A stretch of 64,000 nt of DNA, taken from positions 1,302-65,301 of the forward strand of contig CAWVJB010000010.1 of the NCBI GenBank assembly GCA_963929525.1. Reading direction: 5' to 3'. Each line of letters starts with the position of its first letter. The stretch's first letter is position 1. Positions 2,033 through 56,317 of the stretch are shown here, piece by piece. Source of the DNA: Bacillota bacterium. Its GTDB lineage: Bacteria > Bacillota > Clostridia > TANB77 > CAG-508. The notes beneath the pieces are model-generated. The model worked only from the letters and a program-made list of their open reading frames with translations, searched no databases and was not told the DNA's origin. A program made the translations under genes and the position numbers.

Positions 2033-2105
2033 AACTTTCCTCCCATTTTTCTTGTTCTAATAGTATATTCAATTATCTTGTTTTTTATACTAACTAAAAT
2101 TACCA

Positions 2106-2213
2106 AAGGTTGCCAAAAGGGACGTGTTAAAATGGCAACTTTAATACAATTTAAAAATTAATTATTTTTATTTATCAAAGTTGCCATTTTAACACGTCCC
2201 TTTTGGCAACCTT
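2106..2213. repeat. Rep-A inverted doublet (REPIN-like)
   Basis: Perfect 36-bp arms, AAGGTTGCCAAAAGGGACGTGTTAAAATGGCAACTT (2106-2141) and its reverse complement (2178-2213), around an AT-rich spacer. Each arm is itself a hairpin (GTTGCCA...TGGCAAC). A second copy lies at 13680-13797. Confidence 0.9.
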
Positions 2214-2317: not shown

Positions 2318-4645
2318 ATGAAGCTTATAGATAAATTTTTAAAGAAACTAAATGTAAATAGAAATACTTTTGCAACATATATTTTAACATTATTAACTGT
2401 ATATTTAGCAGTAGACCGAATTGTTGAAATGCTTTTGATGATATTTACAGGTGTATCTTATTCTTATTGGGGACCTATACAATATACATTAGCTTTGGCA
2501 TGTCCAATTTTTGCTTTCTTATTTTCAGGAAATTCCGAATTTGCGACTTCCAATATGAAAAAGGTTGCTATATTCTATGTATATGTCATTGGATTATATG
2601 TGATTGCCATTTCTATGTTTACACAATGGCTAAATATGGGTGCTTGGTTATTACTATTATCTGTTCCCGATTACGTAGAATTAATTACCGATTTTTCTGA
2701 TATTGTAAAACCTGCATTTATTAGTATTTCCCTTTATTTGCCACTAGTCACTATATTTCCATTATTCAAATGGTTATACTTTGGTATTAATGATAATTTA
2801 GATCAAATCCGTTCTATTTGGGACTATAAAGGAATTAACTTATCTGATCCAAACAAGGATAGAGGAATCTATACTTGTGAAGTTTTCTTATGTACAGATG
2901 ATGACTATGGAACAACAATCACCATTCCAGAAGTTTCTAGATATTTATCTTTATTCGTTTGTGGTGGCTCTGGAACAGGTAAAACTTCTTTAATATTTGA
3001 ACCAATGATTGCAAGAGATATTGAAAAAAAGTACTTTTTCAGAGAAGTTTCTAAAGAAATGGGATTTACTGCATTGAAAACAGGTATTGCACATTTGAAA
3101 AGACCATATGATAATGATTACTTAAATCAAAACTTTAAATTAGAAATGCTTGCACCATCTGAAGGTAAAGAAGCTGTTTTTAATGCTTATATGAAAAAAA
3201 TGATATTAGGCTCATTAAATGGAGAAAATGTATATAAAAATTTAGGATTAGAAATTATGTCTCCAGATTATGAATTGATTGACCATATGACACAAGTTTG
3301 CGATAATTATGGATTTAAATATAATATCATTGATCCATCAAATCCTAATTCTATGGGATTAAATCCTTTTGTATATGATGAACCTTCAAAAATAGCCGTT
3401 ACTATTTCTTCTGCTTTAAAAGCTATGTATAATAACGCTCATGAAGAAGTTGAAGATGCTTACAGAGAAGATTTTATTATTCAAGCAATTGAAAATTTAG
3501 CCATTTTATTAAAAGAAATGTATCCTAGAATGAACGAAGGTGCTCTTCCTAATATGGAAGATATGCTAAAAATGTTTACAAATTTTGAATTAGTCGAAAA
3601 AATGTGTGAAATTTTAGCACATGATGAAGAATTAAAAGAAAAATATGCTATACAACTTTCATACTTCAAAAAATGTTTTTATAAAAATGGTCCTGCCAGA
3701 GAGAGAACCGAAAAAGATATATATGCTGCAGTTACACAATTAGATAATCTTTTAAGATTACCTGGTGTAAAATCAATATTATGTAATCGATTTCATAATA
3801 TTGATTTTGATAAATCTCTTGCAAATGGTGATATTACTTTTGTATGTACCAGACGTGGTGATTTAGGCTCATCAACACATCAAGCATTTGGATTATTCTT
3901 CTTAATCTCAATGCAAAATGCGGTTTTAAGAAGACCTGGTGGAGAAAATTCAAGAGTTCCTAACTTCTTGTATGTTGATGAATTCCCTGACTTTATTTGT
4001 AAAGCAACAGAAGCCATGTTTACAATGTACAGAAAATATCGTGTTGGAAACATTATTTCTGCTCAAAATTTAGCACAATTAGATACACCTAAATCAAGAG
4101 AAAATTATAAAAATACAATTCTTGCAAATTGCTCAAATAAAGTATTTACAGGTAATGCTGTTATTGATGAATTAAAATGGTGGGTTGCAGAATTTGGTTC
4201 ACATAGAGAATGGACCTATAAGGTAGATTTAGATACAGATAAAATGTCTTATACAAATAAATTAGGTGATGCAAAATGGGCATATGTTGATTACTTTACA
4301 CCTGGAAAACTACAAGGAATGCTTACTGATAAAAAATGTGCTTATAAAGTAAAAGATATTGGTGGAAAATTAATGGTTGGACCTGGTAGATTTAATTACT
4401 TAGAATCTAAATATAAAGAAAAGCAAAAAATTAAAATATTTGACTTTGGTAAATATTCTGATGGCGTTACTACTGCAACAGAAGACGATACTTCTACTAA
4501 GAAAAAATTTGATTTAAAAAATCTTGATTTTAAAGATGAAAGAGATGAAATCAATCCAGTACAAACAGACACCACAGATTCAAGATATTTATTTAATAAC
4601 GATGATGCTGTTGTTATTAATTTTAAAAGAAGTGAAAAGAAATAG
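2318..4645 (+). CDS. membrane-anchored P-loop ATPase resembling type IV coupling proteins (VirD4/TraG/TraD-like)
   Basis: The N-terminal ~170 aa contain several hydrophobic helices. Walker A is FVCGGSGTGKTS (about 2955-2990). FLYVDEFPDF is followed by SAQNLAQL and ILANCSNKVF, the motif order of T4CP C-terminal modules. GAAAGGA RBS. The family call is from motif memory, not a search. Confidence 0.55.
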   Translation: MKLIDKFLKKLNVNRNTFATYILTLLTVYLAVDRIVEMLLMIFTGVSYSYWGPIQYTLALACPIFAFLFSGNSEFATSNMKKVAIFYVYVIGLYVIAISMFTQWLNMGAWLLLLSVPDYVELITDFSDIVKPAFISISLYLPLVTIFPLFKWLYFGINDNLDQIRSIWDYKGINLSDPNKDRGIYTCEVFLCTDDDYGTTITIPEVSRYLSLFVCGGSGTGKTSLIFEPMIARDIEKKYFFREVSKEMGFTALKTGIAHLKRPYDNDYLNQNFKLEMLAPSEGKEAVFNAYMKKMILGSLNGENVYKNLGLEIMSPDYELIDHMTQVCDNYGFKYNIIDPSNPNSMGLNPFVYDEPSKIAVTISSALKAMYNNAHEEVEDAYREDFIIQAIENLAILLKEMYPRMNEGALPNMEDMLKMFTNFELVEKMCEILAHDEELKEKYAIQLSYFKKCFYKNGPARERTEKDIYAAVTQLDNLLRLPGVKSILCNRFHNIDFDKSLANGDITFVCTRRGDLGSSTHQAFGLFFLISMQNAVLRRPGGENSRVPNFLYVDEFPDFICKATEAMFTMYRKYRVGNIISAQNLAQLDTPKSRENYKNTILANCSNKVFTGNAVIDELKWWVAEFGSHREWTYKVDLDTDKMSYTNKLGDAKWAYVDYFTPGKLQGMLTDKKCAYKVKDIGGKLMVGPGRFNYLESKYKEKQKIKIFDFGKYSDGVTTATEDDTSTKKKFDLKNLDFKDERDEINPVQTDTTDSRYLFNNDDAVVINFKRSEKK

Positions 4646-4734
4646 AACAATAGAAGGCTTTTTTAAACACTTTTCTGTTCATAACATTTTAAAGCGCGCA
4701 TCATTGTTCAGCACCAAATTTTACGTTATATATA
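4645..4734 (+). repeat. Rep-C module, truncated copy
   Basis: GAACAATAGAAGGC...ACATTTTAAAGCGCGCATCATTGTTCAGCACCAAATTTTAC aligns with the 5' half of the copies at 10380 and 19359. It starts on the stop codon of the preceding gene. Confidence 0.75.
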
Positions 4735-5790: not shown

Positions 5791-6081
5791 TTTTGTCCAA
5801 TTGGGGACGTTTCTGTTTGGGACATTTTTTAATTATTAAATTTTTTAAAAGCTATTGTATTAAATTTTATTCATTACTCGGCTAGCATTGCAGAATAAAT
5901 AAATTCTAAAATTATTAAGCAGGCGCTTCTCAAAGAGAAATTTGAGATTTTCCTACTTAATAATTTTAGAATTTTTAATATTCTTCCATTTGCATTCGTA
6001 ATATCATAAATTTAATACCTTTTTTTAAAAACTGATTTGCATAAAAATGTCCCAAACAGAAACGTCCCCAATTGGACAAAA
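5791..6081. repeat. Rep-B inverted doublet with long structured spacer
   Basis: Arms are TTTTGTCCAATTGGGGACGTTTCTGTTTGGGACATTTTT (5791-5829) and its reverse complement (6043-6081). The spacer contains a further palindrome, AAATTCTAAAATTATTAAG...CTTAATAATTTTAGAATTT. A second copy lies at 56221-56317. Confidence 0.9.
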
Positions 6082-8836: not shown

Positions 8837-9042
8837 TTTCAATTCTTCCTTTCTCATATAATATGGAAAATCTTTTTCAAATCTTGATTTTCTTTATTAA
8901 TATTTTACACAATCTTAAATTTAAAAGCTTACCTATATATTATATCATTATTTTCTTGTTTTTTGTATAGTTTTTGATAAAAATTTTATTTTCTATCATA
9001 TTTTTGGTTAAGTCTGAACTGTAACTATTTTTGTCTACTTAT

Positions 9043-10379: not shown

Positions 10380-10560
10380 AAACAATAGCAGATTTTCTTA
10401 AACTTTTTTCTGTTTATAATATTTTAAAGCTAGCATCTTTGTTCGATACCAAATTTTACATTACTAAAATTTGTGTGCAATCGTTAGAGCAAAGCAACGT
10501 TCTTGTATAGGAAAAGCTCAATTTTTCTTTTGAAAATAAAATGTTAAATTTTATTTTCAC
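10380..10560 (+). repeat. Rep-C module, full-length copy
   Basis: AACAATAGC...ATTTTAAAGCTAGCATCTTTGTTCGATACCAAATTTTACATTACTAAAATTTGTGTGCAATCGTTAGAGCAAAGCAACGTT plus terminal hairpins. It aligns with 19359-19516 in the same orientation. Confidence 0.8.
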
Positions 10561-12056: not shown

Positions 12057-12091
12057 GTTACAATTCACAGCTTAATAAAAGACAGTAAAAG
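12057..12091. repeat. solo, decayed MITE-D terminal arm
   Basis: GTTACAATTCACAGCTTAATAAAAGACAGTAAAAG resembles the arm GTTACAATTCACAGCCCAATAAAGGACAGGGAAAG of the element at 19524-19765. Confidence 0.5.
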
Positions 12092-12225
12092 ATGATATTG
12101 TTCAAACATCTAAAATAAACATAAATATCTGTAAAAAAACCTATTTTCTTCACAAAAAATTCACAAACCTGTTGTATTATAAGTTAAAAATAGGTTAATA
12201 TATATAATCATAGGAGGTAATATAA

Positions 12226-13672: not shown

Positions 13673-13679
13673 TCAAAAA

Positions 13680-13797
13680 AAGGTTGCCAAAGGGGACGTG
13701 TTAAAATGGCAACTTGTTAAATAATAAAATCAAGTATTTATATAATATAAAATAAATAAAAAAGTTGCCATTTTAACACGTCCCCTTTGGCAACCTT
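13680..13797. repeat. Rep-A inverted doublet, second copy
   Basis: Arms AAGGTTGCCAAAGGGGACGTGTTAAAATGGCAACTT (13680-13715) and its reverse complement (13762-13797). Confidence 0.9.
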
Positions 13798-13806
13798 TTT
13801 ACTCAA

Positions 13807-18513: not shown

Positions 18514-18658
18514 TTTCTTACATTCCTTTCCAAAGATTAAATTGATTTAAAGTCCTTATAATTATCAATTTTACCTTTTCTCACCTTTTATAGTATTATT
18601 TACCTTTTTTTCTCCTTTATACATTTTTGTGTATTTTTAACAATAAAGACACAAAAAA

Positions 18659-18691
18659 AGTTGCCAAAATGGCACGTCCCTTTTGGCAACA
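18659..18691. repeat. collapsed Rep-A remnant
   Basis: AAGTTGCCAAAATGGCACGTCCCTTTTGGCAAC keeps the GTTGCCAAAA / TTTTGGCAAC stem and the ACGTCCC core. Confidence 0.6.
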
Positions 18692-19358: not shown

Positions 19359-19516
19359 GAACAATAGCGGGCTTTTTTTAATATTTTCTCTGCTCTTAAC
19401 ATTTTAAAGCCCGCGTTATTGTTCGGCGCCAAATTTTGCATTAGTAAAATTTGTGTGCAATCGTTAGAGCGAAGCGACGTTGTTGAATAGGAAAAACTCG
19501 ATTTTTCCTATTCAAC
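19359..19516 (+). repeat. Rep-C module, full-length and best-preserved copy
   Basis: Four successive hairpins: GAACAATAGCGGGC-loop-GCCCGCGTTATTGTTC, then CAAATTTT-8-AAAATTTG, then CAATCGT...ACGTTG, then TTGAATAGGAAAAA-4-TTTTTCCTATTCAA. Confidence 0.85.
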
Positions 19517-19523
19517 AACAATA

Positions 19524-19765
19524 GTTACAATTTACAGCCCAATAAAGGACAGGGAAAGGTTATGTTATTCTATATTGAATGAATTTCGAATGTGATTGGA
19601 ATACTTGTAGCCTTTCTTAATTTAAAACAAATGAGGAAGCGGGAATAGCGAGAGGCTCGTTTATTTTAGATTTAGAAAGGCTAAAGTATGCATTGAGCCG
19701 AGAAATTTATGAAATATAGAATAACATAACCTTTCCCTGTCCTTTATTGGGCTGTGAATTGTAAC
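19524..19765. mobile_element. MITE-D copy A (242 bp, about 52-bp terminal inverted repeats)
   Basis: The TIR is GTTACAATTTACAGCCCAATAAAGGACAGGGAAAGGTTATGTTATTCTATAT paired with its reverse complement. A nested inner hairpin is present. Flanking AACAATA occurs on both sides (19517-19523 and 19767-19773). Confidence 0.8.
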
Positions 19766-19901
19766 GAACAATAAAAAATATCATTTATATATCATTTAAA
19801 ACTTTAACCTTAACGCAAACTTTCAGTTTTCTATAAATTTTCTCACGCAACCCCTTCCTTTATGATTAACATTTATGCTAATTTCTCCATTTTTATCTGT
19901 T

Positions 19902-27266: not shown

Positions 27267-27487
27267 ACAACTAACCCTTACATGTATTGTTATAATTTTG
27301 AAACACCGCGTAAGCAACCAAACGAGCAATAGCGAGTGAGATTGGAGCAACCTTCACACATTGAAAAGTAAATTTTTAAATAGAATTAAATTTATTTAAG
27401 ACTATATAAAAATTTATCTTTCAACATAAGTGGTTGCTTTCGCACTAGGTGTTTCAAAATCATAACAATACATGTAAGGGTTAGTTG
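27267..27487. repeat. Pal-E long palindromic element (221 bp)
   Basis: The termini are CAACTAACCCTTACATGTATTGTTATAATTTTGAAACACC and its reverse complement. The interior pairs almost throughout, apart from a one-sided bulge containing GAGCAATAGCGAGTGAG. Confidence 0.8.
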
Positions 27488-27508: not shown

Positions 27509-28135
27509 CTAATTTTCTATATATATCAAATCCTCTAATATGGTATTTTTCATATTAGGATGTTTTGAAAATTTTGATACATTCAATAAATTATATTTTA
27601 ACTCTAATATATGATTATCATATGTTGTCATCTGAAAACATTGCTTCATTTTTTTTCTATAATGATATGGATTTTCTTTAACATATATCACAATGGGAAT
27701 GATACTGATATTTTTGATATTTTTTTGCTTACAATTTTGAATGATTTTGATACATTCTTGTAAAACAACATATGGCAAATCAATAAAAATCTCTTGTTGA
27801 TATATAATCATATAAAAAATTTGTCTATCCAAATGCTTATATATGATTCTTATACCTTTCTGGCTTTTATAGAAATCCATATATACTAATTTTTCTTTTT
27901 CTATTTTTTCATAACTATCTGAAAAACAATTAAGAAAGGAACAAATTCTTTCTTTATCTTTAAATAGATATTCGATGATTTCTCTATATTTTATATTTAA
28001 ATTGTTTTCTTCAAAAACATGATATTTCTCGTTTTCTTCTTGTAAATTCAAATAATCATATTGTTTTACATTATGAATACATTGAATATAGTTTTTATAG
28101 GTAAACTGATATATGACTCTATCACCTCCTAACAA
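27509..28135 (-). CDS. degenerate Rpn/YhgA-like (PD-(D/E)XK putative transposase) family protein, possibly a pseudogene
   Basis: IFYMIIYQQEIFIDLPYVVLQECIKII...IIPIVIYV follows the Rpn core pattern, but the EHQS-type catalytic residues are replaced. The only in-frame start is a TTG without an RBS. An AGGAGG inside the ORF is followed 10 nt later by ATA, where an ATG would be expected. Confidence 0.4.
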   Translation of the reverse strand: MLGGDRVIYQFTYKNYIQCIHNVKQYDYLNLQEENEKYHVFEENNLNIKYREIIEYLFKDKERICSFLNCFSDSYEKIEKEKLVYMDFYKSQKGIRIIYKHLDRQIFYMIIYQQEIFIDLPYVVLQECIKIIQNCKQKNIKNISIIPIVIYVKENPYHYRKKMKQCFQMTTYDNHILELKYNLLNVSKFSKHPNMKNTILEDLIYIEN

Positions 28136-28294
28136 AATAAATTTTAAACTTACTTTTGGAATTCTTTTTGATATTAAAATATATGATAAAAATTAGACTA
28201 AAATATATAAATTAAAATTATGTATATTAAATCACAAAAATGTAAAAAATTCAAGTATTTTCTATCGACAATTTGTCGACATTTGAAATTATCG

Positions 28295-28527
28295 GTTACA
28301 ATTCAGACCTAAGTAATCTTCCAGGGGTGATATGTTATATTTTTAAGCGTTCGAATGCGACCAGAATAGTTTTACAAATTCTTAGGATAAAAGCACAAAG
28401 GGTTCTGTTTCCAGGTATTGTTGTGTTTTTATTCTTAGAATTTGTTAAACGGGAATTGGCAGGTAGCCGAGATCCTTAAAAATATAACATATCACCCCTG
28501 GAAGATTACTTAGGTCTGAATTATAAC
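28295..28527. mobile_element. MITE-D copy C (233 bp)
   Basis: The TIR is GTTACAATTCAGACCTAAGTAATCTTCCAGGGGTGATATGTTATATTTTTAAG paired with its reverse complement. The 8-bp direct repeat AAATTATC flanks it (28286-28293 and 28528-28535). Confidence 0.85.
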
Positions 28528-28592
28528 AAATTATCTGTAAAAGATGCTATTTCACTTCTTTCAATTGAAATAGCATCTTTTTCTTTTATATG

Positions 28593-47100: not shown

Positions 47101-50100
47101 CAATTTTTTCAAAATCTTCATCATCTTGCTCACCTTCAAAGTATTCTTCACTACTAGTTAGATCTTTTTCACTATTATTTTCATTTCCTATGTAACCATT
47201 ATCTGTTGAAATCAAATCATCTTTTGTAACATTTGGTTTTGTCCCTGGCTCAGAGTCTGTATCTGCATGCTCTTGAGTAGTGATTGTTATATCATCTTCT
47301 TCATCATATGCTTCTGATATCCAAGCCACATTTGTTAATATTTGATTTGTACTTCCTGCTTCTGCTGTAACGGTACATTCTATTTGTATTGTAATAGAAT
47401 CTAATACTTCTCCACTAAATGCTTGTAATAAATAGTCATTATTTGGTAATTCTGCATTTAAAGTTGCATCTATTAATTTTAATTTTAATAGATTATCTGT
47501 TTCTGAATAACTTTCTACTTCATAATATTCAGATATCAATCTTTCAAATTTTAGACCAGTTGGTAATTGATCTTCAATTTTTGTAGCCATTCCAGCTTTG
47601 GCTCCTTCATTATATATCGTTAGATTATATATAATTTTATCACCAGTATTGACAATGATTGGATTTTTTTTATGTTTGTATATAGCTGTTGTTACATTTC
47701 CATAGTTATTAGCTAATTCACTTATATCAATATTAGGAATTCTATTGGTAATATCTATATCTCCCACTTTGGTAATATATTTTCTTAAACTTAAATCAAA
47801 TGGTAAATGTATATTTGTAATGATATAATTATTTTCTGCACCTGCTAAGATTGCCGTTTCTCCATTCGTATCATTTGTACTATTTTGTGCTGGACTTTGT
47901 TCAGAAATGCTTCCTGCTATTGGATAATATCCTTGTGGCACATTTACCTCTACCACTGTATATTCAATATCCACTCCATTTTCTTTTACTGGTAAATTAT
48001 CAAAAGTTACTGTCCATGCAGGTCCTGTTAATGTTTTGATTTCTCCTGTTGCACTTCCATTCTTATATAGCTCAAATTGTACACTTTCTGGTCTTAATCC
48101 ATCTCGGTTATCAAAATCATACCACTCTTTTTTTGCAGTAATACTGGTTACTGTTGGTGTATGTGTATTAGTAATGGTAAAGTTATTGTTACTATTTTCT
48201 ACTTTATTTGTTGTATATCCTTCTGGCACACTAACTTCATCTACAGTATATTCAATTTCTTGTCCATTTTCATATTTTGCTAATCCTGTAAATATATAAC
48301 TCCAATTATTATTAGCATCTAATGTTACTGTTTGAAGAGTTTGCGTTCCTTTCTTTAAGGCAATCTGTATAGTTGTTGGTCTTATACCATCTTGATTATG
48401 ATTATCTGACCAAATTTTATTAACACTAACATTAATCGTTGCTGGTGTATGAGAATTTGTAATTGTATAACTTTTTCCTGTACTATCTGTCGTGGCATTT
48501 GTATTTGTTGTATAACCACTAATACTTGTCGTTTCTTTCACACTATATATAACTGTTTGTCCATTTTCTTTTATTGGTAAATTTTCGAATTTTCCTGACC
48601 ACCCATTTGCTTCGTTTAATGTCATTGTTTGACCTGTTGATTGTTCATTTTTTAATAATTCAACTGTAATTTCAGTTGCTCGAATGCCGTCTTGATTATT
48701 ATTGTCTTCCCAAACTTTACTAACTTCTACACTGGTCACTGCTCTTACAACTACTTTTTCAAAATCATCATCATCTTGTTGACCTTCAAAATAACTTTCT
48801 GAATTCATCAAATCTTTTCCTTGATTATGATCATTTCCAATATAACCATCATCTGTTGTAACTAAATCCTCTTTTGTTTGTGTAGTAATCGTTGAAGGTT
48901 CTGAATCCCTATCATCTCCCAGATTACTTGTAATAACTGTTCCATCTTCATCTATTTCTTCTGCTATCCAGGCAATATTCGTTAATATTTGATCAGACTC
49001 TCCTCCTGTTGCCGTTACTCTACATTTTATTTGAATCGTTTCAGAACTTACATTTCCTTTTTCATATGCTGATAAGTTTGTTGTGTTATTGACTTTCCTT
49101 GTTAAATAGATGGTATTGGTTTGCTCGTCATATGTTTGTACTTCAAAATTTCCACTAACTACTTCTACAAACTCCAATCCAGTTGGTAATTGATCTACAA
49201 TTTCTGTTGCTCTTCCTGCTTTTTCACCTTCATTGTATATAGTCATATTATAAGTAATGATATCATTATTTTTTACTTCTACTGGATCTTTTCTGTGTGT
49301 ATATGTAGCAGTTGTTCCATTTTCTAATGTACTTTCGTCTATGACAGGAACTCTACTACTTGTTAATGCTTCATCATTGATTGCTGTAATATATTTTCTG
49401 AATGATAAGTCAAATGTTCTTGGCACTTTATATACTTCCATAATTGGTTGTGCCTCTGCATCTTGATTAGAAGCATATACAGTTAATATGGTTTTTTCGT
49501 CATTTATACCTTTACTTGCATTGTTTCTAGCTGTATCAATTAAATACTGATACAATTTTACCATTTGTTGCTGTCTAAAGTATCCTGCTGTTGCACTTGT
49601 ATATGGGAAATTTGTTGGATTGTATGATGAAAAATTTTTATATTCCCCTTTTTCTTCACCATCTGTATACCAAATCCAGCTAGTTTCACCATATTTATCA
49701 TATCTTCCATTTTCTTCATAATTTGTAAAATACCATATTGCTGCCTGCTGGATAGCATCTATTTCATCATCTGTTATATAATATTCTGGTACTCCATTAA
49801 AATCACTCTTTTCAACTATATCATTTGCTCCAGAATCATCTAATAATTGTTGTCTTTCTGCTTGTGTAGATACCCCTTTTACATAAAGAAGATCTGCCAA
49901 TGCTAATAAATTTTCATATTGACCATCATTTACAAGATGATTTAATATATCATTTTGTGCAGCAATTTCTGTTTTCTCTGTTTTCATATTATAGCTTACA
50001 TCATATGTATCTGTTGAACCTGCACCTGCAAACCCCGTATTTGCTTTTATACAATATGCACTTACTTCTGTAGGATCATTATAACTGGTATTACTATATT

Positions 50101-50299
50101 GTACAATTTTCCAGATTTTTTCTGCGCCAGAATCTGGATCTCCCATAGCATATCCCATATTTGTTGTTGTTCTTATCTCTGCTATTCCAAAATACAATTT
50201 TTCACTCATTGGCGTAGCTTGTACTGTCTGATTTAGAAAAGCTGATATGAAACATACTATAAATATAATGAGAATAAATAAAATTTTTCTACTTTTCAT
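44144..50299 (-). CDS. 2051-aa surface adhesin: signal peptide, thioester domain, DUF11-type repeats, six Cna-B-type domains, hydrophobic C-terminal anchor
   Basis: Thioester signatures are SAYCIKAN (Cys83, 50053-50051) and IQQAAIWYFTN. The FDLSLRKYIT...IYNEGEKAG...DQLPTGL modules are DUF11-like. VSKVWEDNNNQDGIRA-type Cna-B repeats occur six times, in two blocks of three. The C-terminus is LLAVETGQERIYYILGFTVLGTLAGGLILIKKFVI. Confidence 0.85.
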   Translation of the reverse strand: MKSRKILFILIIFIVCFISAFLNQTVQATPMSEKLYFGIAEIRTTTNMGYAMGDPDSGAEKIWKIVQYSNTSYNDPTEVSAYCIKANTGFAGAGSTDTYDVSYNMKTEKTEIAAQNDILNHLVNDGQYENLLALADLLYVKGVSTQAERQQLLDDSGANDIVEKSDFNGVPEYYITDDEIDAIQQAAIWYFTNYEENGRYDKYGETSWIWYTDGEEKGEYKNFSSYNPTNFPYTSATAGYFRQQQMVKLYQYLIDTARNNASKGINDEKTILTVYASNQDAEAQPIMEVYKVPRTFDLSFRKYITAINDEALTSSRVPVIDESTLENGTTATYTHRKDPVEVKNNDIITYNMTIYNEGEKAGRATEIVDQLPTGLEFVEVVSGNFEVQTYDEQTNTIYLTRKVNNTTNLSAYEKGNVSSETIQIKCRVTATGGESDQILTNIAWIAEEIDEDGTVITSNLGDDRDSEPSTITTQTKEDLVTTDDGYIGNDHNQGKDLMNSESYFEGQQDDDDFEKVVVRAVTSVEVSKVWEDNNNQDGIRATEITVELLKNEQSTGQTMTLNEANGWSGKFENLPIKENGQTVIYSVKETTSISGYTTNTNATTDSTGKSYTITNSHTPATINVSVNKIWSDNHNQDGIRPTTIQIALKKGTQTLQTVTLDANNNWSYIFTGLAKYENGQEIEYTVDEVSVPEGYTTNKVENSNNNFTITNTHTPTVTSITAKKEWYDFDNRDGLRPESVQFELYKNGSATGEIKTLTGPAWTVTFDNLPVKENGVDIEYTVVEVNVPQGYYPIAGSISEQSPAQNSTNDTNGETAILAGAENNYIITNIHLPFDLSLRKYITKVGDIDITNRIPNIDISELANNYGNVTTAIYKHKKNPIIVNTGDKIIYNLTIYNEGAKAGMATKIEDQLPTGLKFERLISEYYEVESYSETDNLLKLKLIDATLNAELPNNDYLLQAFSGEVLDSITIQIECTVTAEAGSTNQILTNVAWISEAYDEEDDITITTQEHADTDSEPGTKPNVTKDDLISTDNGYIGNENNSEKDLTSSEEYFEGEQDDEDFEKIVVEAKTQITVTKQWEDNNDQDRKRPGEITLTLYAGEEATEHTASVSKNGNTWTYTFSNLPKYADGEEIVYTVRETVPDGYTASDEGIADSANNYTITNSYTPETTQIVVTKKWEDNDNQDGIRPPEIQVELIKNGEETGNTVTLNEGNNWAGTFENLAVNENGEKITYTIKEITVDGYAVLITQNSENNFTITNTHTPGTTSVTVNKVWNDKDNQDGLRPDSIQVQLIGTIENDDGTTITVVDKNITITKDEGWIGTFNDLPVNEDGQEIIYTVREMTQIDGYTSEVRENTESTNNTEDTENIASTDEVKTTTVTYNARSMVRATSKNIEPKNFTITNTHIVEEEFDLALRKFMIAISKDETIEESDILRNEDGSGYAREPVVDASKLNTLDEDGNTITTAIYHHTKEPVLVKKSDIIVYMLRVYNEGEQDGYAAEITDYLPPYLTFVDGEFNEQYGWKISENGRMVTTRYLENSVIAKPETDVNGNHTLSYVEVPIMCRVSDSASTNQNITNLADITEYQDKDKQPVEDRDSKEENVEIPTDEELPSYKDEEIKNPYVPGQEDDDDFEKVIIKNFDLSLRKFITKVDEEEVTTRVPEVSYHREEEKLTYNHTKDPVEVVTGNVVEYMIRVYNEGDMAGYAQEVTDDIPNGLKFLPENATNIEYRWVMYDAEGNVTENSEEAVEIKTDYLSKEQEETEGENLLQAFKQEEEIGEGNPDYRDIKVAFEVVEPNESDRIIINSAQITDDSDENGNPVEDIDSIPDEWNEGEDDQDKEYIKLTYFDLSLRKWVTEAIVVEDGKEAVTQTGHTAEMDPEPVVKVELYRKDTNHVTVKFRYKIRITNEGDIAGYAKDITDYIPEGLKFVAEDNPEWTDKGNNIISTKQLENTLLQPGETADVEVLLTWINGEDTMGVMTNIAEISEDDNEKGAPDKDSTPDNQVTGEDDIDDASVLLAVETGQERIYYILGFTVLGTLAGGLILIKKFVI

Positions 50300-50533
50300 A
50301 TACCTCTCTTCCTCTCTTTTCTATATAATATCATTATATTTCATTTTTTTTTATTTTCAATATGCTTTTTGCTTGAAATATTTACCTACTTTTTTTCGAG
50401 CTTTTTCTATTTACGGATACAGACAATCTACATATTTTGATATTTATTACAATTTTATTTCTTTTTGATAACATTTTCGTTTAATAAAATACAACGTTAC
50501 AATAGGAAAGAATGTCTTTCCTATTGTATGAAA

Positions 50534-50559
50534 AATAGGACATGTTTTCATGTCCTATT
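50534..50559 (-). terminator. Rho-independent terminator after the 1189-aa adhesin gene
   Basis: AATAGGACATG-4-CATGTCCTATT, followed on the minus strand by TTTTTC. A second hairpin lies at 50499-50527. Confidence 0.6.
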
Positions 50560-50598
50560 TAGAAGTCCATTTGAATTTAATTAAAATGAATCCTATCC

Positions 50599-53500
50599 CT
50601 AGATAACAAACTTCTTAATTAAAATTAATCCTCCTGCTAATGTTCCTAATACTGTAAATCCTAATACATAGTAAATTCTCTCTTGTCCTGTTTCCACTGC
50701 TAATAATACTGGTGCATCATCTATGTCATCTTCTCCTGGTACTTGATTATCTGGTGTTGAATCTCTATCTGGTGCTCCTTTTTCATTATCATCTTCTGAT
50801 ATTTCTGCTATATTTGTCATCTCTCCCATCGTGTCTTCTCCATTTATCCAGGTTAACAATACTTCTACCTCTGCTGTTTCTCCTGGTTGTAATAATGTAT
50901 TTTCCAATTGTCTTGTTGAGATGATATTGTTTCCTTCATCTGTCCATTCTGGATTATCCTCTGCTACAAATTTTAAACCTTCTGGTACATAATCTGTTAT
51001 CTCTTTTGCATATCCTGCAATATCTCCCTCATTTGTGATTCTGATTTTATATCTGAATTTCACAATTACATCATTGATATCTTTTCTATATAACTCTACT
51101 TTTACAACTGGCTCTGGATCCATCTCTGCTGTATGTCCTGTTTGAGTTATTGTTTCTTTTCCATCTTCTATCACAATTGCTTCTGTTACCCATTTTCTTA
51201 ATGCTAAATCAAAATAGGTCAATTTAATATATTCTTTATCTTGGTCATCTTCTCCTTCGTTCCATTCATCTGGTATAGAATCTATATCTTCTACTGGATT
51301 TCCATCCTCATCACTATCATCTGTAATTTGTGCTGAATTGACAATAATTCTATCTGATTCATTTGGTTCTACTACTTCAAAAGCTACTTTGATATCTCTA
51401 TAGTCTGGATTTCCTTCTCCAATGGCTTCTTCTGGGTTAAATGCTTGTAATAAGTTTGGATTTTCTGTTTCTTCTCCATTTTCTTCTGTAGTTCCTTCTT
51501 GTATATCTTGCGTTGTATCTCCTACTGTTGTTTCTTCCTCATTTAGTCTAGTTTCTCCTTGTTCTTTTGATAAGTAATCTGTTCTGATTTCTACTGCTTC
51601 TTCTACGTTGTCTGTTACATTTCCTTCTGCATCATACATAACCCATCTATACTCTATGTTTGTTGCATTTTCTGGTAAAAACTTTAATCCATCTGGTATA
51701 TCATCTGCTACTTCTTCTGCATAACCTGCAATATCTCCTTCATTATATACTCTAATCGTATATTCAACTACATTTCCTGTTACAACTTCTACTGGTTCTT
51801 TTGTATGATTGTATGTGATTTTTTCCTCTTCTCTTTGATAACTTACTTCTGGTATTCTTGTTGTAACTTCTTCTTCATTTACTTTTGTGATAAATTTTCT
51901 TAATGCTAAGTCAAAGTCTTGGATAATCACATTATCATAATCTTCATCATCTTCATATTTTACCCATTCTTCTGGTTTTGAATCTCTATCATCTACTGGG
52001 TTTCCTTCACTATCGGCATCTTCTGTGATAGCTGCTTCATTTCTAATAATTCCAATACTTGGATCATCTGTTACTACTTTAAAGATAACAGCTATTTCTT
52101 TATAGTCTGGATTTTTTTCTGTTTCTGTATCAGAATAAGGACTGTTTGGATCAAATGCTTTTATTAAATTGGCTCCTGGTGTTGTAATTTCTTCTCCTTT
52201 TCCTCTTCCTAAATAATCTGTTTTAATTTTGGTTGTATCACCTTCCACATAAGTCCATCCCATTGATGTATTAAATTCTACTGCAGCTAATTCTTCTTCA
52301 TCTGTAATTGGATTCATATTAGAATCTACTTCTGCACCAAGAAATTCTAAACCTTTTGGAATATCTTCAGTAATTTCTTCTGCATAACCATCTATTTCTC
52401 CCTCATTGTAAATTCTAAATGTATAAGTGATTAAATCTCCTGTTTGTACTGAAACTGGTTCTTTATTCATTTGATAATCTGCTGTTGTTTGTGTTCCATT
52501 CGCTAAGTTTGTAATATCAACACCTAATAATCTTTCTGGAATGTTTTCTCCATTTACTCCAGTAATTCTTTTAATTAATTTTAAGTCAAATTCTTTTTCT
52601 TCTGGAACATTAACAACTACTTTTTCAAAATCATCATCATCTTGCTCTCCTTCATAGAAATAATCTGAATCTCCTAAATCATCTTTGTTTTCTGTATTTC
52701 CTCGATAATCTTCCATGTTATCTTTATTGACATCTGGTGTTGTTCCTGGCTCTGAATCTCTATCTTCTCCTACTTCATCAATAACATTTCCATATTCATC
52801 TATTTCTTCTGCTATCCATGCAACATTTGTTAATATTTTTCCATTTTCACTTGCATCTACTATACATTCAATCTCTATTGTTTCTGAATCTAATTGTCCT
52901 TGTTGATATGCTGTTAAATTTTCTGTATTACTTTCTTCTCTGGTGATAGTTACTCTGTTTGTCTCTTCATCATATTGTGCTGTAAATCCTTCTGTTATGA
53001 TTTGTGAATATGTTAATCCACTTGGTAGTTGATCTATAATTTGTGTAGCTCTTCCGTCTACTTCGCCTTCATTATAGATGGTGATATGATATGTCACCTT
53101 ATCTCCATTTTCTACCATTACTGGATCTTTTCTATGCTGATATGTAGCTGTTGTTCCATTTTCTAATGTACTTTCATCTATGACTGGTACTCTCGTATTG
53201 GTAACAGGTTCTCCATTGATTTCTGTTATATATTTCCTTAAAGCTAAATCAAATTCTTGTGGTATTTTTTCTACTTTCATTAATGGTTGTGAATTTCCTG
53301 TTGCTGTCGTATATAATGTTAATTGATTTCTATGTTTTACATTAGGATCTTCATAATTTGCTGCTTGCTCTTTTGCTTCATCTATTAAATATTGATATAA
53401 TTTTACAGCTTGTTCTCTTCTTACAAATCCTACTGCTGGTGTTTTATCTGTTCCATATGATGATAATGGTTCATATTGTGTTCCATCTTCTGTATAATAT

Positions 53501-54168
53501 AACCATGCATCCTCATCATAAACATCATATTTTCCATTTTCTTCTCCATAGTTCGTAAAATACCATATTGCTGCTTGTTGTACGGCTTCTATTTCATCAT
53601 CTGTTATGTTATATTCTTCCCCTAAACCTGCATATTCTTGCTCTTGTAATGCTAAGACACCTGATTCTCTTAATAAAGTTTCTTTCTCAGCATCTGTTGA
53701 TTCTCCTGGTATATAGATTAAGTTAGCTATCGCTAATAACTCATTATAGTGACCACCATTTACTAGATTAGATAATACTTTATTTGTATTCGCATCTTGA
53801 TCTGCTATTTCTAACCTTTCTGTATACATGTCAAATTTCAAATTATATTCTTGTATTTCTTTTGTTCCTTGACCTTCTGTAAATCCAACACCTGCTTTCA
53901 CACAATATACATTTACTTCAGTAGGGTCATTTGTATTTTCTCCACTATATTGTACAATATTCCATATTTTTGCAGCACTTCCTGTTTCTTCACTGTTGGA
54001 ATCTGGATCTTTAATAGAATATCCCATTCCTGTTGCTTCTCTTAATTCTGTTATTCCAAAATACAATGGTGGTGTTTGTTCTGCAGCTCTTACAATATTA
54101 GGTATCATTGCTACACAAATCATTAATAATAGTACTATGAAAACTCTCATAATTTTATTAATACTCAT
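50599..54168 (-). CDS. 1189-aa surface adhesin paralog: signal peptide, thioester domain, DUF11-type repeats, same C-terminal anchor
   Basis: VYCVKAGVGF and VQQAAIWYFTN motifs. The C-terminal ~380 aa are nearly identical to those of the 2051-aa protein. Confidence 0.85.
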   Translation of the reverse strand: MSINKIMRVFIVLLLMICVAMIPNIVRAAEQTPPLYFGITELREATGMGYSIKDPDSNSEETGSAAKIWNIVQYSGENTNDPTEVNVYCVKAGVGFTEGQGTKEIQEYNLKFDMYTERLEIADQDANTNKVLSNLVNGGHYNELLAIANLIYIPGESTDAEKETLLRESGVLALQEQEYAGLGEEYNITDDEIEAVQQAAIWYFTNYGEENGKYDVYDEDAWLYYTEDGTQYEPLSSYGTDKTPAVGFVRREQAVKLYQYLIDEAKEQAANYEDPNVKHRNQLTLYTTATGNSQPLMKVEKIPQEFDLALRKYITEINGEPVTNTRVPVIDESTLENGTTATYQHRKDPVMVENGDKVTYHITIYNEGEVDGRATQIIDQLPSGLTYSQIITEGFTAQYDEETNRVTITREESNTENLTAYQQGQLDSETIEIECIVDASENGKILTNVAWIAEEIDEYGNVIDEVGEDRDSEPGTTPDVNKDNMEDYRGNTENKDDLGDSDYFYEGEQDDDDFEKVVVNVPEEKEFDLKLIKRITGVNGENIPERLLGVDITNLANGTQTTADYQMNKEPVSVQTGDLITYTFRIYNEGEIDGYAEEITEDIPKGLEFLGAEVDSNMNPITDEEELAAVEFNTSMGWTYVEGDTTKIKTDYLGRGKGEEITTPGANLIKAFDPNSPYSDTETEKNPDYKEIAVIFKVVTDDPSIGIIRNEAAITEDADSEGNPVDDRDSKPEEWVKYEDDEDYDNVIIQDFDLALRKFITKVNEEEVTTRIPEVSYQREEEKITYNHTKEPVEVVTGNVVEYTIRVYNEGDIAGYAEEVADDIPDGLKFLPENATNIEYRWVMYDAEGNVTDNVEEAVEIRTDYLSKEQGETRLNEEETTVGDTTQDIQEGTTEENGEETENPNLLQAFNPEEAIGEGNPDYRDIKVAFEVVEPNESDRIIVNSAQITDDSDEDGNPVEDIDSIPDEWNEGEDDQDKEYIKLTYFDLALRKWVTEAIVIEDGKETITQTGHTAEMDPEPVVKVELYRKDINDVIVKFRYKIRITNEGDIAGYAKEITDYVPEGLKFVAEDNPEWTDEGNNIISTRQLENTLLQPGETAEVEVLLTWINGEDTMGEMTNIAEISEDDNEKGAPDRDSTPDNQVPGEDDIDDAPVLLAVETGQERIYYVLGFTVLGTLAGGLILIKKFVI

Positions 54169-56220: not shown

Positions 56221-56317
56221 TTTTGTCCAATTGGGGACGTTTCTATTTGGGACATTTTCAATGCTTAATATATTATTTTCAAAAAATGTCCCAAATAAAA
56301 ACGTCCCCAATTGGACA
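56221..56317. repeat. Rep-B inverted doublet, compact copy
   Basis: TTTTGTCCAATTGGGGACGTTTCTATTTGGGACATTTT and its reverse complement, with a 23-bp spacer. It abuts the plsX stop codon. Confidence 0.9.

What the first reader, a model, noticed from the sequence alone, without database searches (positions are those of the whole stretch)
28286..28535. MITE family with GTTACAATTCAG termini and 8-bp target-site duplications (copies at 19524, 28295 and 42952; solo arm at 12057)
Three elements share the termini GTTA(C/T)A(A/C)TT(T)CAG.CC.AA. Each is flanked by a direct duplication. The 233-bp copy has AAATTATC at 28286-28293 and 28528-28535. The 47-bp minimal copy has ATCTATTT at 42944-42951 and 42999-43006. 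The 242-bp copy has (C/G)AACAATA at 19516-19523 and 19766-19773. The long copies are almost perfect hairpins with further nested hairpins inside, and the short copy keeps only the outer ~20 bp of each end. No transposase is present in the window, so they would have to be mobilised in trans. Arm mismatches are mostly G:T when read on the + strand, which hints at RNA-level structure.
Basis: seen in the sequence. Interest (0 to 1): 0.65.

Follow-up and report, generated by a model that had tools for sequence, protein, structure and literature searches.

The report
Hairpin MITE family with structured cargo
These are small non-coding jumping elements of uncultured gut Clostridia, shown by 8-bp target duplications and an empty site in a sister species, and their long copies carry a conserved, strand-specific folded module of unknown function.

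Summary
All the reported copies exist at the stated coordinates, and I found a further 19-bp remnant at 9007-9025 with its own perfect 8-bp duplication.

The flanking repeats are true target-site duplications. A sister species (L028) has a single AAATTACC exactly where the window has AAATTATC-element-AAATTATC. Of 105 elements fetched from public genomes by their termini alone, 30 have perfect 8/8 flanking repeats and 20 have 7/8. Shifted controls give 1-2.

The shared terminus is only 12 bp, GTTAC(A/T)(G/A)TTCAG. Hosts are gut Clostridia and Lachnospiraceae. No transposase partner was found.

The long window copies are more than foldbacks. They carry a ~137-nt "Type-1 core" with conserved asymmetric internal loops (CGAATG.. 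facing ..GCCGAG). It shows strong covariation (92.8% paired against 64.8% shuffled), a G:T over A:C excess of 118:22 on one strand, and a 3:1 orientation bias. The same core sits inside unrelated hairpin shells, including window 5791-6081. Other cargo types ride the same termini.

Rfam, plasmid and phage searches find nothing. The core's lower loop resembles the RNA-polymerase-binding RSB loop of ssoA plasmid origins, but with the arms swapped.

Verdict: a real MITE family, a new variant because of its modular structured cargo. Cargo function is unresolved.

The parts
28294..28527 (+). Full-length element (G + 233 bp), subfamily with termini GTTACAATTCAGACCTAAG
   Evidence: Inserted relative to the L028 empty site.
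28286..28293 (.). Left copy of the 8-bp target-site duplication AAATTATC
   Evidence: L028 has a single AAATTACC at this position.
28528..28535 (.). Right copy of the 8-bp target-site duplication AAATTATC
28344..28479 (+). Type-1 structured core (cargo) of the 28295 copy
   Evidence: Model R1 scores 116.9 bits on the + strand and 33.8 bits on the - strand.
19524..19765 (+). Full-length element, second subfamily (GTTACAATTTACAGCCCAATAAAGG). Flanks CAACAATA / GAACAATA at 19516-19523 and 19766-19773.
   Evidence: I1.
19579..19710 (+). Type-1 core of the 19524 copy. TAGCGA lies in the apical loop and GCATTGAGCCGAGAAATTTAT on the 3' arm.
   Evidence: R1 scores 100.3 bits. Similarity to the pT181 RSB.
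42952..42998 (.). 47-bp minimal copy (two ~20-bp termini). TSD ATCTATTT at 42944-42951 and 42999-43006.
   Evidence: Present in all same-species contigs.
9007..9025 (-). 19-bp remnant (one terminus plus one base). TSD TATTTTTG at 8999-9006 and 9026-9033.
   Evidence: Fixed in same-species contigs.
12057..12103 (+). Solo left arm of the 19524-type subfamily (truncated copy)
   Evidence: I6.
5791..6081 (-). Different hairpin shell (termini TTTTGTCCAATTGGGGACG) carrying the same Type-1 core at 5869-6006 on the minus strand
   Evidence: R1 scores 112.7 bits.
27268..27487 (-). Hairpin with other termini carrying 'Type-2' cargo. Elsewhere the same cargo sits inside GTTAC-ended MITEs.
   Evidence: Alignment A4: 85% mean column identity with L127, L135, L146 and L212.

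Best explanation
The elements are non-autonomous transposons (MITEs). An unidentified transposase supplied in trans recognises a 12-bp terminal inverted repeat, GTTAC(A/T)(G/A)TTCAG. It inserts the element into AT-rich intergenic DNA through a staggered 8-bp cut, and repair of that cut duplicates the target. The TIRs and the duplication are shown. A DDE-type enzyme is inferred from them.

Copies then decay in place by internal deletion, down to 40-100-bp TIR-only forms, single arms and a 19-bp footprint.

The termini act as a vehicle for interchangeable cargo. In this clade the commonest cargo is a ~137-nt 'Type-1 core'. It folds on one strand only into a rod with two conserved purine-rich internal loops. 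Its sequence islands are 5' TTCGAATG(Y)GA(YYR)GAAT, the stem AAATTCT / AGAATTT, and 3' (G/T)AGCCGAGAA.

Because pairing is kept by compensatory changes and by G:T but not A:C, the core is selected as a folded single strand. My preferred reading, inferred and about 0.35 likely, is an RNA-polymerase-binding hairpin of the ssoA/RSB or single-strand-promoter kind. In that reading it fires outward through the 3' arm. A structured RNA is nearly as likely.
For: TIR and TSD
- Terminus enrichment: 6 matches against 0.07 expected.
- 30 perfect and 20 7/8 flanking repeats among 105 TIR-pattern hits, against 1-2 in shifted controls.
- Empty site in L028.
- Mini-copies with perfect TSDs, for example L061 9251-9290 with AAAAAATT.
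- In-situ deletion derivative in L037.

Non-coding and trans mobilisation
- No transposase in the window, nor in about 2.4 Mb of related loci.

Cargo
- Model R1 finds 23 strand-specific cores in 1.41 Mb and 48 in 0.75 Mb.
- 92.8% of cells paired against 64.8% shuffled and 37-48% slid. 37 of 39 pairs show double changes.
- G:T 118 against A:C 22.
- The same core occurs in other shells. Type-2 cargo is shared between shells.
- Orientation bias: 45:15 relative to GC skew, and 24-31:10 relative to co-directional flanking genes.

RSB likeness
- ATGCATTGA-GCCGAGAAA matches 17 of 19 positions of the pT181 RSB region. 3 of 300 shuffles score as high.
- The facing strand ATTGGAATA is shared with pT181 and pE194 palA.
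- RSB and CS-6 sequences are from PMC4598088.
- -35/-10-like hexamers lie on the 3' arm.
Against: - No autonomous element with these termini was found, so the transposase family is unknown.
- All copies in the window are fixed in every same-species contig examined. There is therefore no sign of current activity in this species.
- Palindromes can keep their arms complementary by DNA-level processes. L144 6849-7080 is a nearly perfect palindrome in which the 3' loop sequence has been replaced by the complement of the 5' one. Part of the 'covariation' may therefore not be selection.
- Outer-shell mismatches show no strand bias: 6 G:T against 7 A:C.
- Against the sso-like reading: the RSB-like strand is on the 3' arm, whereas in ssoA it is on the 5' arm. 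Model R1 does not score pT181 palA (7.7 bits). BLAST finds no plasmid or phage relatives. The loci are chromosomal.
Confidence: 0.75

Rival explanations
1. The Type-1 core is a structured non-coding RNA, either an sRNA or a cis-acting RNA element, carried around by MITEs. The hairpin matters in the transcript.
For: - Covariation and tolerance of G:U on one strand.
- Conserved unpaired purine-rich loops, typical of protein- or ligand-binding RNAs.
- Strand-specific model scores.
- The orientation bias could reflect selection against co-transcription with neighbouring genes.
Against: - No Rfam family matches.
- No conserved promoter lies upstream of the 5' half, because the shells differ between subfamilies.
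- In most co-directional contexts the sense strand is antisense to the flanking genes: 24-31 against 10. Read-through transcripts would therefore mostly carry the wrong strand.
- The only recurrent promoter-like site lies inside the 3' half and points outward.
Confidence: 0.3
2. The hairpins have no function of their own. They are foldback MITEs whose arms stay complementary through palindrome-homogenising DNA processes. The shared 'core' then only reflects common descent and recombination between elements.
For: - A nearly perfect palindromised copy exists, L144 6849-7080.
- Outer shells show no strand bias in mismatches.
- Copies decay by deletion and point mutation at orthologous sites, for example in L034, L035 and L037.
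Against: - The asymmetric loops (CGAATG opposite GCCGAG) are conserved across subfamilies whose stems share no sequence. A homogenising process would erase them.
- G:T 118 against A:C 22.
- A 3:1 orientation bias is not expected for a symmetric, functionless insert.
- The core recurs in several unrelated shells.
Confidence: 0.2
3. The flanking direct repeats are a preferred target sequence or chance AT-rich similarity, not duplications. The elements would then be REP-like or IS200/IS605-type palindromes moved by a tyrosine (HUH) enzyme.
For: - Flanks are AT-rich: 78% A+T in perfect TSDs.
- One copy, L002, has inverted rather than direct flanks.
Against: - The empty site holds one copy of the 8-mer.
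- The TSD sequences differ from copy to copy, with no positional consensus.
- Shifted controls give 1-2 of 105 with at least 7/8, against 50 observed.
Confidence: 0.03

Closest known systems
Prokaryotic MITEs (e.g. Correia/NEMIS of Neisseria, RUP of Streptococcus, MITEAba12, Nezha)
   Same: Small size (40-270 bp), non-coding and multi-copy. Terminal inverted repeats and a fixed-length target-site duplication. Intergenic location, hairpin-forming, mobilised in trans.
   Different: The conserved terminus is only 12 bp. The same termini carry several unrelated structured cargos, and the main cargo also occurs in shells with other termini. The cargo shows strand-specific covariation and an orientation bias. 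The family is not in the prokaryotic MITE review consulted, which has no Clostridia or 8-bp entries. No paper holds the terminal sequence.
IS families that make 8-bp duplications, especially IS66/ISBst12 (ends 5'-GTAA, 8-bp TSD; from my memory of ISfinder)
   Same: 8-bp TSD. The terminus starts with GT-A. These families occur in Bacillota.
   Different: The ends read GTTA, not GTAA. No transposase gene with these termini was found, so descent from any IS family is untested.
ssoA (palA) single-strand origins of rolling-circle plasmids pT181 and pE194
   Same: A strand-specific, 150-250-nt imperfect hairpin. It has an internal loop whose two strands read GCCGAGAAA (RSB) and ATTGGAATA. TAGCGA lies in the apical loop of the 19524-type copies.
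   Different: The RSB-like strand is on the 3' arm instead of the 5' arm, an 'inside-out' topology. The elements are chromosomal, TIR-flanked and multi-copy. There is no significant model or BLAST similarity. CS-6 is absent from most subtypes.
ERIC/IRU and BOX mosaic repeats
   Same: Imperfect palindromes, modular build, intergenic location, proposed to act as folded transcripts.
   Different: Those lack defined TIR + 8-bp TSD transposon signatures. There is no sequence similarity.

Membership tests
MITE (non-autonomous TIR transposon) | Terminal inverted repeats shared by all copies | tested here: met
   Consensus GTTAC(A/T)(G/A)TTCAG at both ends.
MITE (non-autonomous TIR transposon) | Target-site duplication of fixed length, absent from empty sites | tested here: met
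   30 perfect and 20 7/8 of 105, against 1-2 in controls. The L028 empty site has one copy of the 8-mer.
MITE (non-autonomous TIR transposon) | Small size, no coding capacity, multiple copies per genome | tested here: met
   Sizes 40-267 bp. Five copies or remnants in 64 kb. Several per MAG, for example CAMMWP01.
MITE (non-autonomous TIR transposon) | An autonomous IS with the same termini | tested here: inconclusive
   None in the window or in about 2.4 Mb of fetched loci. Collection patterns cannot span more than 600 nt, so IS-sized TIR pairs could not be scanned.
IS66/ISBst12-derived element | Ends 5'-GTAA and an 8-bp TSD, with a TnpC-type transposase | tested here: inconclusive
   The TSD length fits. 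The ends are GTTA, not GTAA. No transposase was found. The family features are from memory, not from a database.
ssoA-type single-strand origin | RSB sequence (TTATGCCGAGAAAATTT) in a basal internal loop | tested here: inconclusive
   GCCGAG(A)AA is conserved. The 19524 copy matches pT181 at 17 of 19 positions, with 3 of 300 shuffles scoring as high. The facing strand ATTGGAATA is shared.
ssoA-type single-strand origin | RSB on the 5' arm, with CS-6 (TAGCGT/A) in the terminal loop downstream of it | tested here: not met
   The RSB-like strand is on the 3' arm. TAGCGA is present only in the 19524/L171 subtype.
ssoA-type single-strand origin | Resides on a rolling-circle replicon; overall sequence or structure similarity | tested here: not met
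   Chromosomal housekeeping context. R1 scores 7.7 bits on pT181 palA. No plasmid or phage BLAST hits.
Any Rfam 15 RNA family | Score at or above the family gathering threshold | tested here: not met
   Only a tRNA in the window. On the element, only generic long-hairpin miRNA models appear, far below threshold.
REP/BIME (RAYT) or IS200/IS605 palindrome-associated elements | No TSD; insertion next to a fixed tetra- or pentanucleotide; subterminal rather than whole-element hairpins | tested here: not met
   Variable 8-bp duplications with no consensus. True TIRs are present.
Integron attC site | 5'-RYYYAAC ... GTTRRRY-3' ends, cassette arrays, no TSD | tested here: not met
   The ends read 5'-GTTAC ... 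GTAAC-3' and carry a TSD. The copies are dispersed and solitary.

The most novel reading that the evidence does not exclude
The cargo modules are transposable single-strand initiation signals. In this reading MITEs spread an 'inside-out' relative of the ssoA/RSB RNA-polymerase-binding hairpin (Type-1), and possibly other sso-like cassettes (Type-2 contains AATAGCGAGTGAGATTGGAG). They would supply a portable ssDNA promoter or priming site to whatever replicon they land in. In the chromosome the active strand would be selected away from the lagging-strand template, which would explain the 3:1 orientation bias.
Probability: 0.25. Interest if true: 0.8.

Novelty: new variant of a known kind. Interest (0 to 1): 0.55.

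Why it matters
As a MITE family this is ordinary biology in an unstudied clade of uncultured, AT-rich gut Clostridia and Lachnospiraceae.

It goes beyond that in three ways. A 12-bp terminus serves as a shuttle for several unrelated, highly structured, strand-specific modules. The dominant module is conserved by covariation. The same module also turns up inside other hairpin shells.

If the module is a functional RNA, it is a new, abundant ncRNA class, at roughly one copy per 20 kb in this window. If it is a folded-DNA signal related to plasmid single-strand origins, it would be the first transposable sso or ssDNA-promoter cassette. It would also give a direct handle on how host-specific lagging-strand origins move between replicons.

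Either way, these elements should be masked or annotated in gut MAGs, where they probably break assemblies and seed spurious small ORFs.

Tried and rejected
- **Rfam.** Gathering and E-value modes gave only a tRNA and generic miRNA-hairpin noise.
- **BLAST of both long copies and of the Type-2 hairpin against plasmids, and of an L112 copy against phages.** Only short chance or low-complexity hits.
- **First collection scan with a 19-nt subfamily terminus.** One real hit (L002) and five chance hits. This shows that the sequence beyond nt 12 is subfamily-specific.
- **Same-species contigs around three copies, looking for presence/absence polymorphism.** All were occupied.
- **Empty site for the 19524 copy.** Not obtainable. 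Its left flank is itself a repeat and its right flank is not conserved next to the element.
- **Autonomous partner.** No TIR pairs 300-6000 bp apart. A generic search for 600-3500-bp inverted repeats with a perfect 8-bp TSD found none. Solo termini next to ORFs turned up L192 4239, which is next to an antiporter, not a transposase. Proteins recurring across loci are ABC ATPases, PBPs and kinases.
- **Core pattern in viral contigs.** 25 hits, none confirmed by the model.
- **Hairpin ribozyme.** The apical GUCCUGUUU and ACCAGA(G)AA words recall the sTRSV hairpin ribozyme (from memory). The loop partners do not fit and the Rfam hairpin models do not score. Rejected.
- **K-turn reading of the lower loop.** The tandem G.A pairs are possible but the bulge arrangement is not canonical. 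Not pursued.
- **The neighbouring Rpn/YhgA-like ORF (27509-28135) as mobiliser.** Its upstream region is conserved in L028, which lacks the element. It is not a DDE enzyme.
- **Literature.** No paper holds the terminal sequence or describes such a family.

Full report
**Observation**

- The 233-bp copy at 28295-28527 has arms 93% complementary. The 242-bp copy at 19524-19765 has arms 94% complementary.
- The 28295 copy folds at -123.7 kcal/mol on the + strand (z = -17.7) and at -115.3 on the - strand.
- Flanking repeats are exact for 28295 (AAATTATC, with one extra G at 28294) and for 42952 (ATCTATTT). They match 7/8 for 19524.
- The terminus with up to 3 mismatches occurs 6 times against 0.07 expected.
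- One of those hits is new: a 19-bp remnant at 9007-9025 flanked by exact TATTTTTG.

**Whose genome**

The window is a housekeeping chromosomal stretch carrying EF-Tu, EF-G, S12, MetRS, a Clp ATPase, PlsX, ComEC and two pseudouridine synthases.
- It belongs to an uncultured, AT-rich gut Clostridia species.
- Identical proteins occur in many human and animal gut metagenome contigs.
- The nearest GTDB genomes are MAGs labelled uncultured Clostridia, Eubacteriales or Clostridium sp. Their RluB-like proteins are 70-95% identical.

**The flanking repeats are target-site duplications**

I scanned one genome per GTDB species for GTTAYNRTTYAG-N(200-230)-CTRAAYNRTAAC.
- Of 105 usable hits, 30 have identical 8-mers on both sides and 20 more match 7/8.
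- When one flank is shifted by 8 nt, only 1-2 reach 7/8.
- The duplicated 8-mers are AT-rich (78% A+T) with no positional consensus, so they are not a recognition sequence.
- The decisive case is the window's own 28295 copy. Sister species L028 (RluB 94% identical) reads ...GTCGACGTTTG-AAATTACC-TGCAAAAGATGC... The window reads ...GTCGACATTTG-AAATTATC-G[element]-AAATTATC-TGTAAAAGATGC....
- Within the window's own species every contig examined is occupied at 28295, 42952 and 9007. These insertions are therefore old and fixed.

**Anatomy of the family**

- Among perfect-TSD copies the ends read GTTAC(A/T)(G/A)TTCAG. Nothing is conserved beyond position 12.
- Hosts of TSD-positive copies include the window's clade and also Lachnospiraceae MAGs and Lacrimispora.
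- Many of those copies are not hairpins beyond the TIR and carry unrelated interiors.
- Sizes range from 40 to 267 bp. Mini-copies such as L061 9251-9290 (TSD AAAAAATT) consist of the two termini only.
- L037 has a 102-bp version at the very site where L028 and L032 have 246 bp. The 5' half is deleted. Short copies therefore arise by internal deletion in place.
- The 47-bp copy, the 12057 arm and the 9007 footprint are further stages of that decay.

**The cargo**

The two long window copies share little sequence in their stems. They do share islands that face each other in an internal loop: TTCGAATG(C/T)GA..GGAAT on the 5' arm and (G/T)AGCCGAGA on the 3' arm. They also share an AAATTCT / AGAATTT stem.
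- The same islands occur in relatives whose termini differ. In the window itself they occur inside the 5791-6081 hairpin, on the minus strand, whose ends are TTTTGTCCAATTGGGGACG.
- A covariance model of this 137-position 'Type-1 core' finds 23 copies in 1.41 Mb around the RluB loci and 48 in 0.75 Mb of TIR-pattern loci.
- Scores are 57-131 bits on one strand. The other strand scores about 30-45 bits, and only over the symmetric middle.
- On 60 distinct sequences, 92.8% of cells pair, against 64.8% after shuffling and 37-48% with slid partners. 37 of 39 pairs show changes on both sides.
- At paired positions there are 118 G:T and 22 A:C.
- The window copies show the same tendency: 6:1 and 4:2, and 4:2 on the sense strand of 5791-6081.
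- Apical parts fall into at least five variants. All keep a second purine-rich internal loop.
- The core sits in many different outer shells, including L055, L058, L061, L066 and L070.
- A second cargo ('Type-2') is shared, at 85% mean column identity, between the window hairpin 27268-27487 and GTTAC-ended MITEs L127, L135, L146 and L212.
- A third cargo type is seen in L175 and L177.
- Termini and cargo are therefore separable modules.

**Orientation**

- Cores lie in intergenic DNA.
- Between co-directional genes the sense strand opposes the genes 31 times and agrees 10 times. After dropping orthologous copies the count is 24 against 10.
- Divergent gene junctions outnumber convergent ones 10 to 2.
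- Relative to local GC skew, the sense strand is on the C-rich strand 45 times and on the G-rich strand 15 times.
- Gene direction and replication direction are confounded here. In the three cases where they disagree, the core follows the skew. That number is too small to count.
- A symmetric TIR element should insert in either orientation. The bias therefore implies strand-specific consequences after insertion.

**What the cargo might be**

- Rfam has nothing. The plasmid and phage collections give no similarity. Viral contigs hold no model-confirmed copy.
- One lead survives in part. The ssoA origins of rolling-circle plasmids are strand-specific hairpins of about 160 nt recognised by RNA polymerase (PMC5703833).
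- Their conserved RSB is 5'-TTATGCCGAGAAAATTT and their CS-6 is TAGCGT (PMC4598088).
- In pT181 and pE194 the basal loop is formed by TTTATGCCGAGAAAAC on the 5' arm and GGAAATTGGAATAAA on the 3' arm. TAGCGA lies in the apical region.
- The 19524 copy has ATGCATTGAGCCGAGAAA, matching 17 of 19 positions of pT181. 3 of 300 shuffles score as high.
- That copy also has GATTGGAATA facing the RSB-like strand and TAGCGA in its apical loop.
- Family-wide, GCCGAGAA and GGAAT are the conserved loop residues.
- But the arms are swapped. The RSB-like strand is on the 3' arm, so the loop points away from the apex, an 'inside-out' topology.
- The model does not score palA (7.7 bits).
- On the 3' arm a -35-like TTGAGC or TTGGCA, followed 16-18 nt later by TAGAAT, TAAAAT or AAAAAT, recurs across subfamilies and reads outward.
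- I therefore rank the readings as follows:
  - an RNA-polymerase-binding hairpin (sso-like or single-strand-promoter-like, firing outward), about 0.35;
  - a structured RNA, about 0.3;
  - no function, about 0.2.
- The last has real support. L144 6849-7080 is a palindromised copy that has lost the asymmetric loop. Outer shells show no strand bias in mismatches, 6 G:T against 7 A:C.

**The missing partner**

- There is no DDE transposase in the window.
- No IS-sized TIR pair, TSD-flanked inverted repeat or recurrent transposase-like ORF turned up in about 2.4 Mb of fetched loci.
- The collection scanner cannot span IS lengths.
- From memory of ISfinder, 8-bp duplications with ends starting GT.A recall IS66/ISBst12 (GTAA). 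The ends here are GTTA, and nothing was tested.

**Verdict**

- It is a new MITE family, so a known kind of element.
- It is unusual in that a 12-bp terminus ferries interchangeable, strand-specific structured modules that also occur in other shells.
- The nature of the main module, folded DNA signal or RNA, is the open and interesting question.

Noticed in passing
window 2105-2213, 13677-13800, 18657-18690: Another hairpin repeat family. Each arm is itself a ~31-nt palindrome, GTTGCCAAAAGGGACGTGTTAAAATGGCAAC. There are two full copies and one single arm, with no obvious TSD.
   Followed up: partly
window 56221-56317 (and the shell of 5791-6081): A 97-bp TIR-only copy of the TGTCCAATTGGGGACGTTTCT.TTTGGGACA shell. 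The same shell at 5791-6081 encloses a Type-1 core. It shares the GGGGACG word with the GTTGCC family. No clear TSD.
   Followed up: partly
window 4646-4728, 10381-10542, 19361-19522: Three copies of an 80-150-nt direct repeat, 71-82% identical. The third abuts the left end of the 19524 element. Copies also occur in L045, L031 and L047.
   Followed up: no
window 59547-59644 and 62419-62516: Two 98-nt repeats, 78% identical, each containing a hairpin. One overlaps the 3' end of the EF-G ORF (59671-61752, minus strand); the other lies just downstream of the ribosomal protein S12 ORF (62537-62950, minus strand). Possibly a shared 3'-end (terminator-like) or other regulatory element. Rfam is silent.
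   Followed up: no
window 27509-28135 (-): A 208-aa ORF with a Pfam Transposase_31 (YhgA/Rpn-like nuclease) match of 25.4 bits against a cutoff of 21. It sits between the Type-2 hairpin and the 28295 element. Its upstream region is conserved in L028, which lacks the element, so it is probably unrelated to mobilisation.
   Followed up: partly
window 34868-36418 (-), 37213-37285, 2318-4645: A large serine recombinase lies about 0.8 kb from a tRNA gene. A TraG/VirD4-like coupling protein is at the window start. These may be remnants of integrated conjugative or phage elements.
   Followed up: no
window 44144-54168 (-): Two giant repeat-rich surface proteins (2051 and 1189 aa, Cna_B/CLIPPER repeats) account for most of the direct-repeat families in the window.
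   Followed up: no
L144 6849-7080: A GTTAC-ended copy whose Type-1 core has become an almost perfect palindrome. The 3' loop sequence is replaced by the complement of the 5' CGAATGCGACCAGAAT. It scores on both strands (90 and 66 bits), which suggests arm-to-arm conversion.
   Followed up: partly
L002 310-583: This copy's flanks are inverted, not direct (GGGATTTAAGAGA / TCTCTTAAATCCC). The hairpin therefore extends beyond the TIRs. It may have inserted into a pre-existing palindrome or lie nested in another element.
   Followed up: no
L066 10856-11007 and L070 7984-8138: More distant species (RluB 77-78% identical) carry a degenerate Type-1 core in a non-GTTAC shell just downstream of the RluB gene. 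This is the same intergenic position and orientation as the window's 28295 copy. It is either a hot spot or an older occupant.
   Followed up: partly
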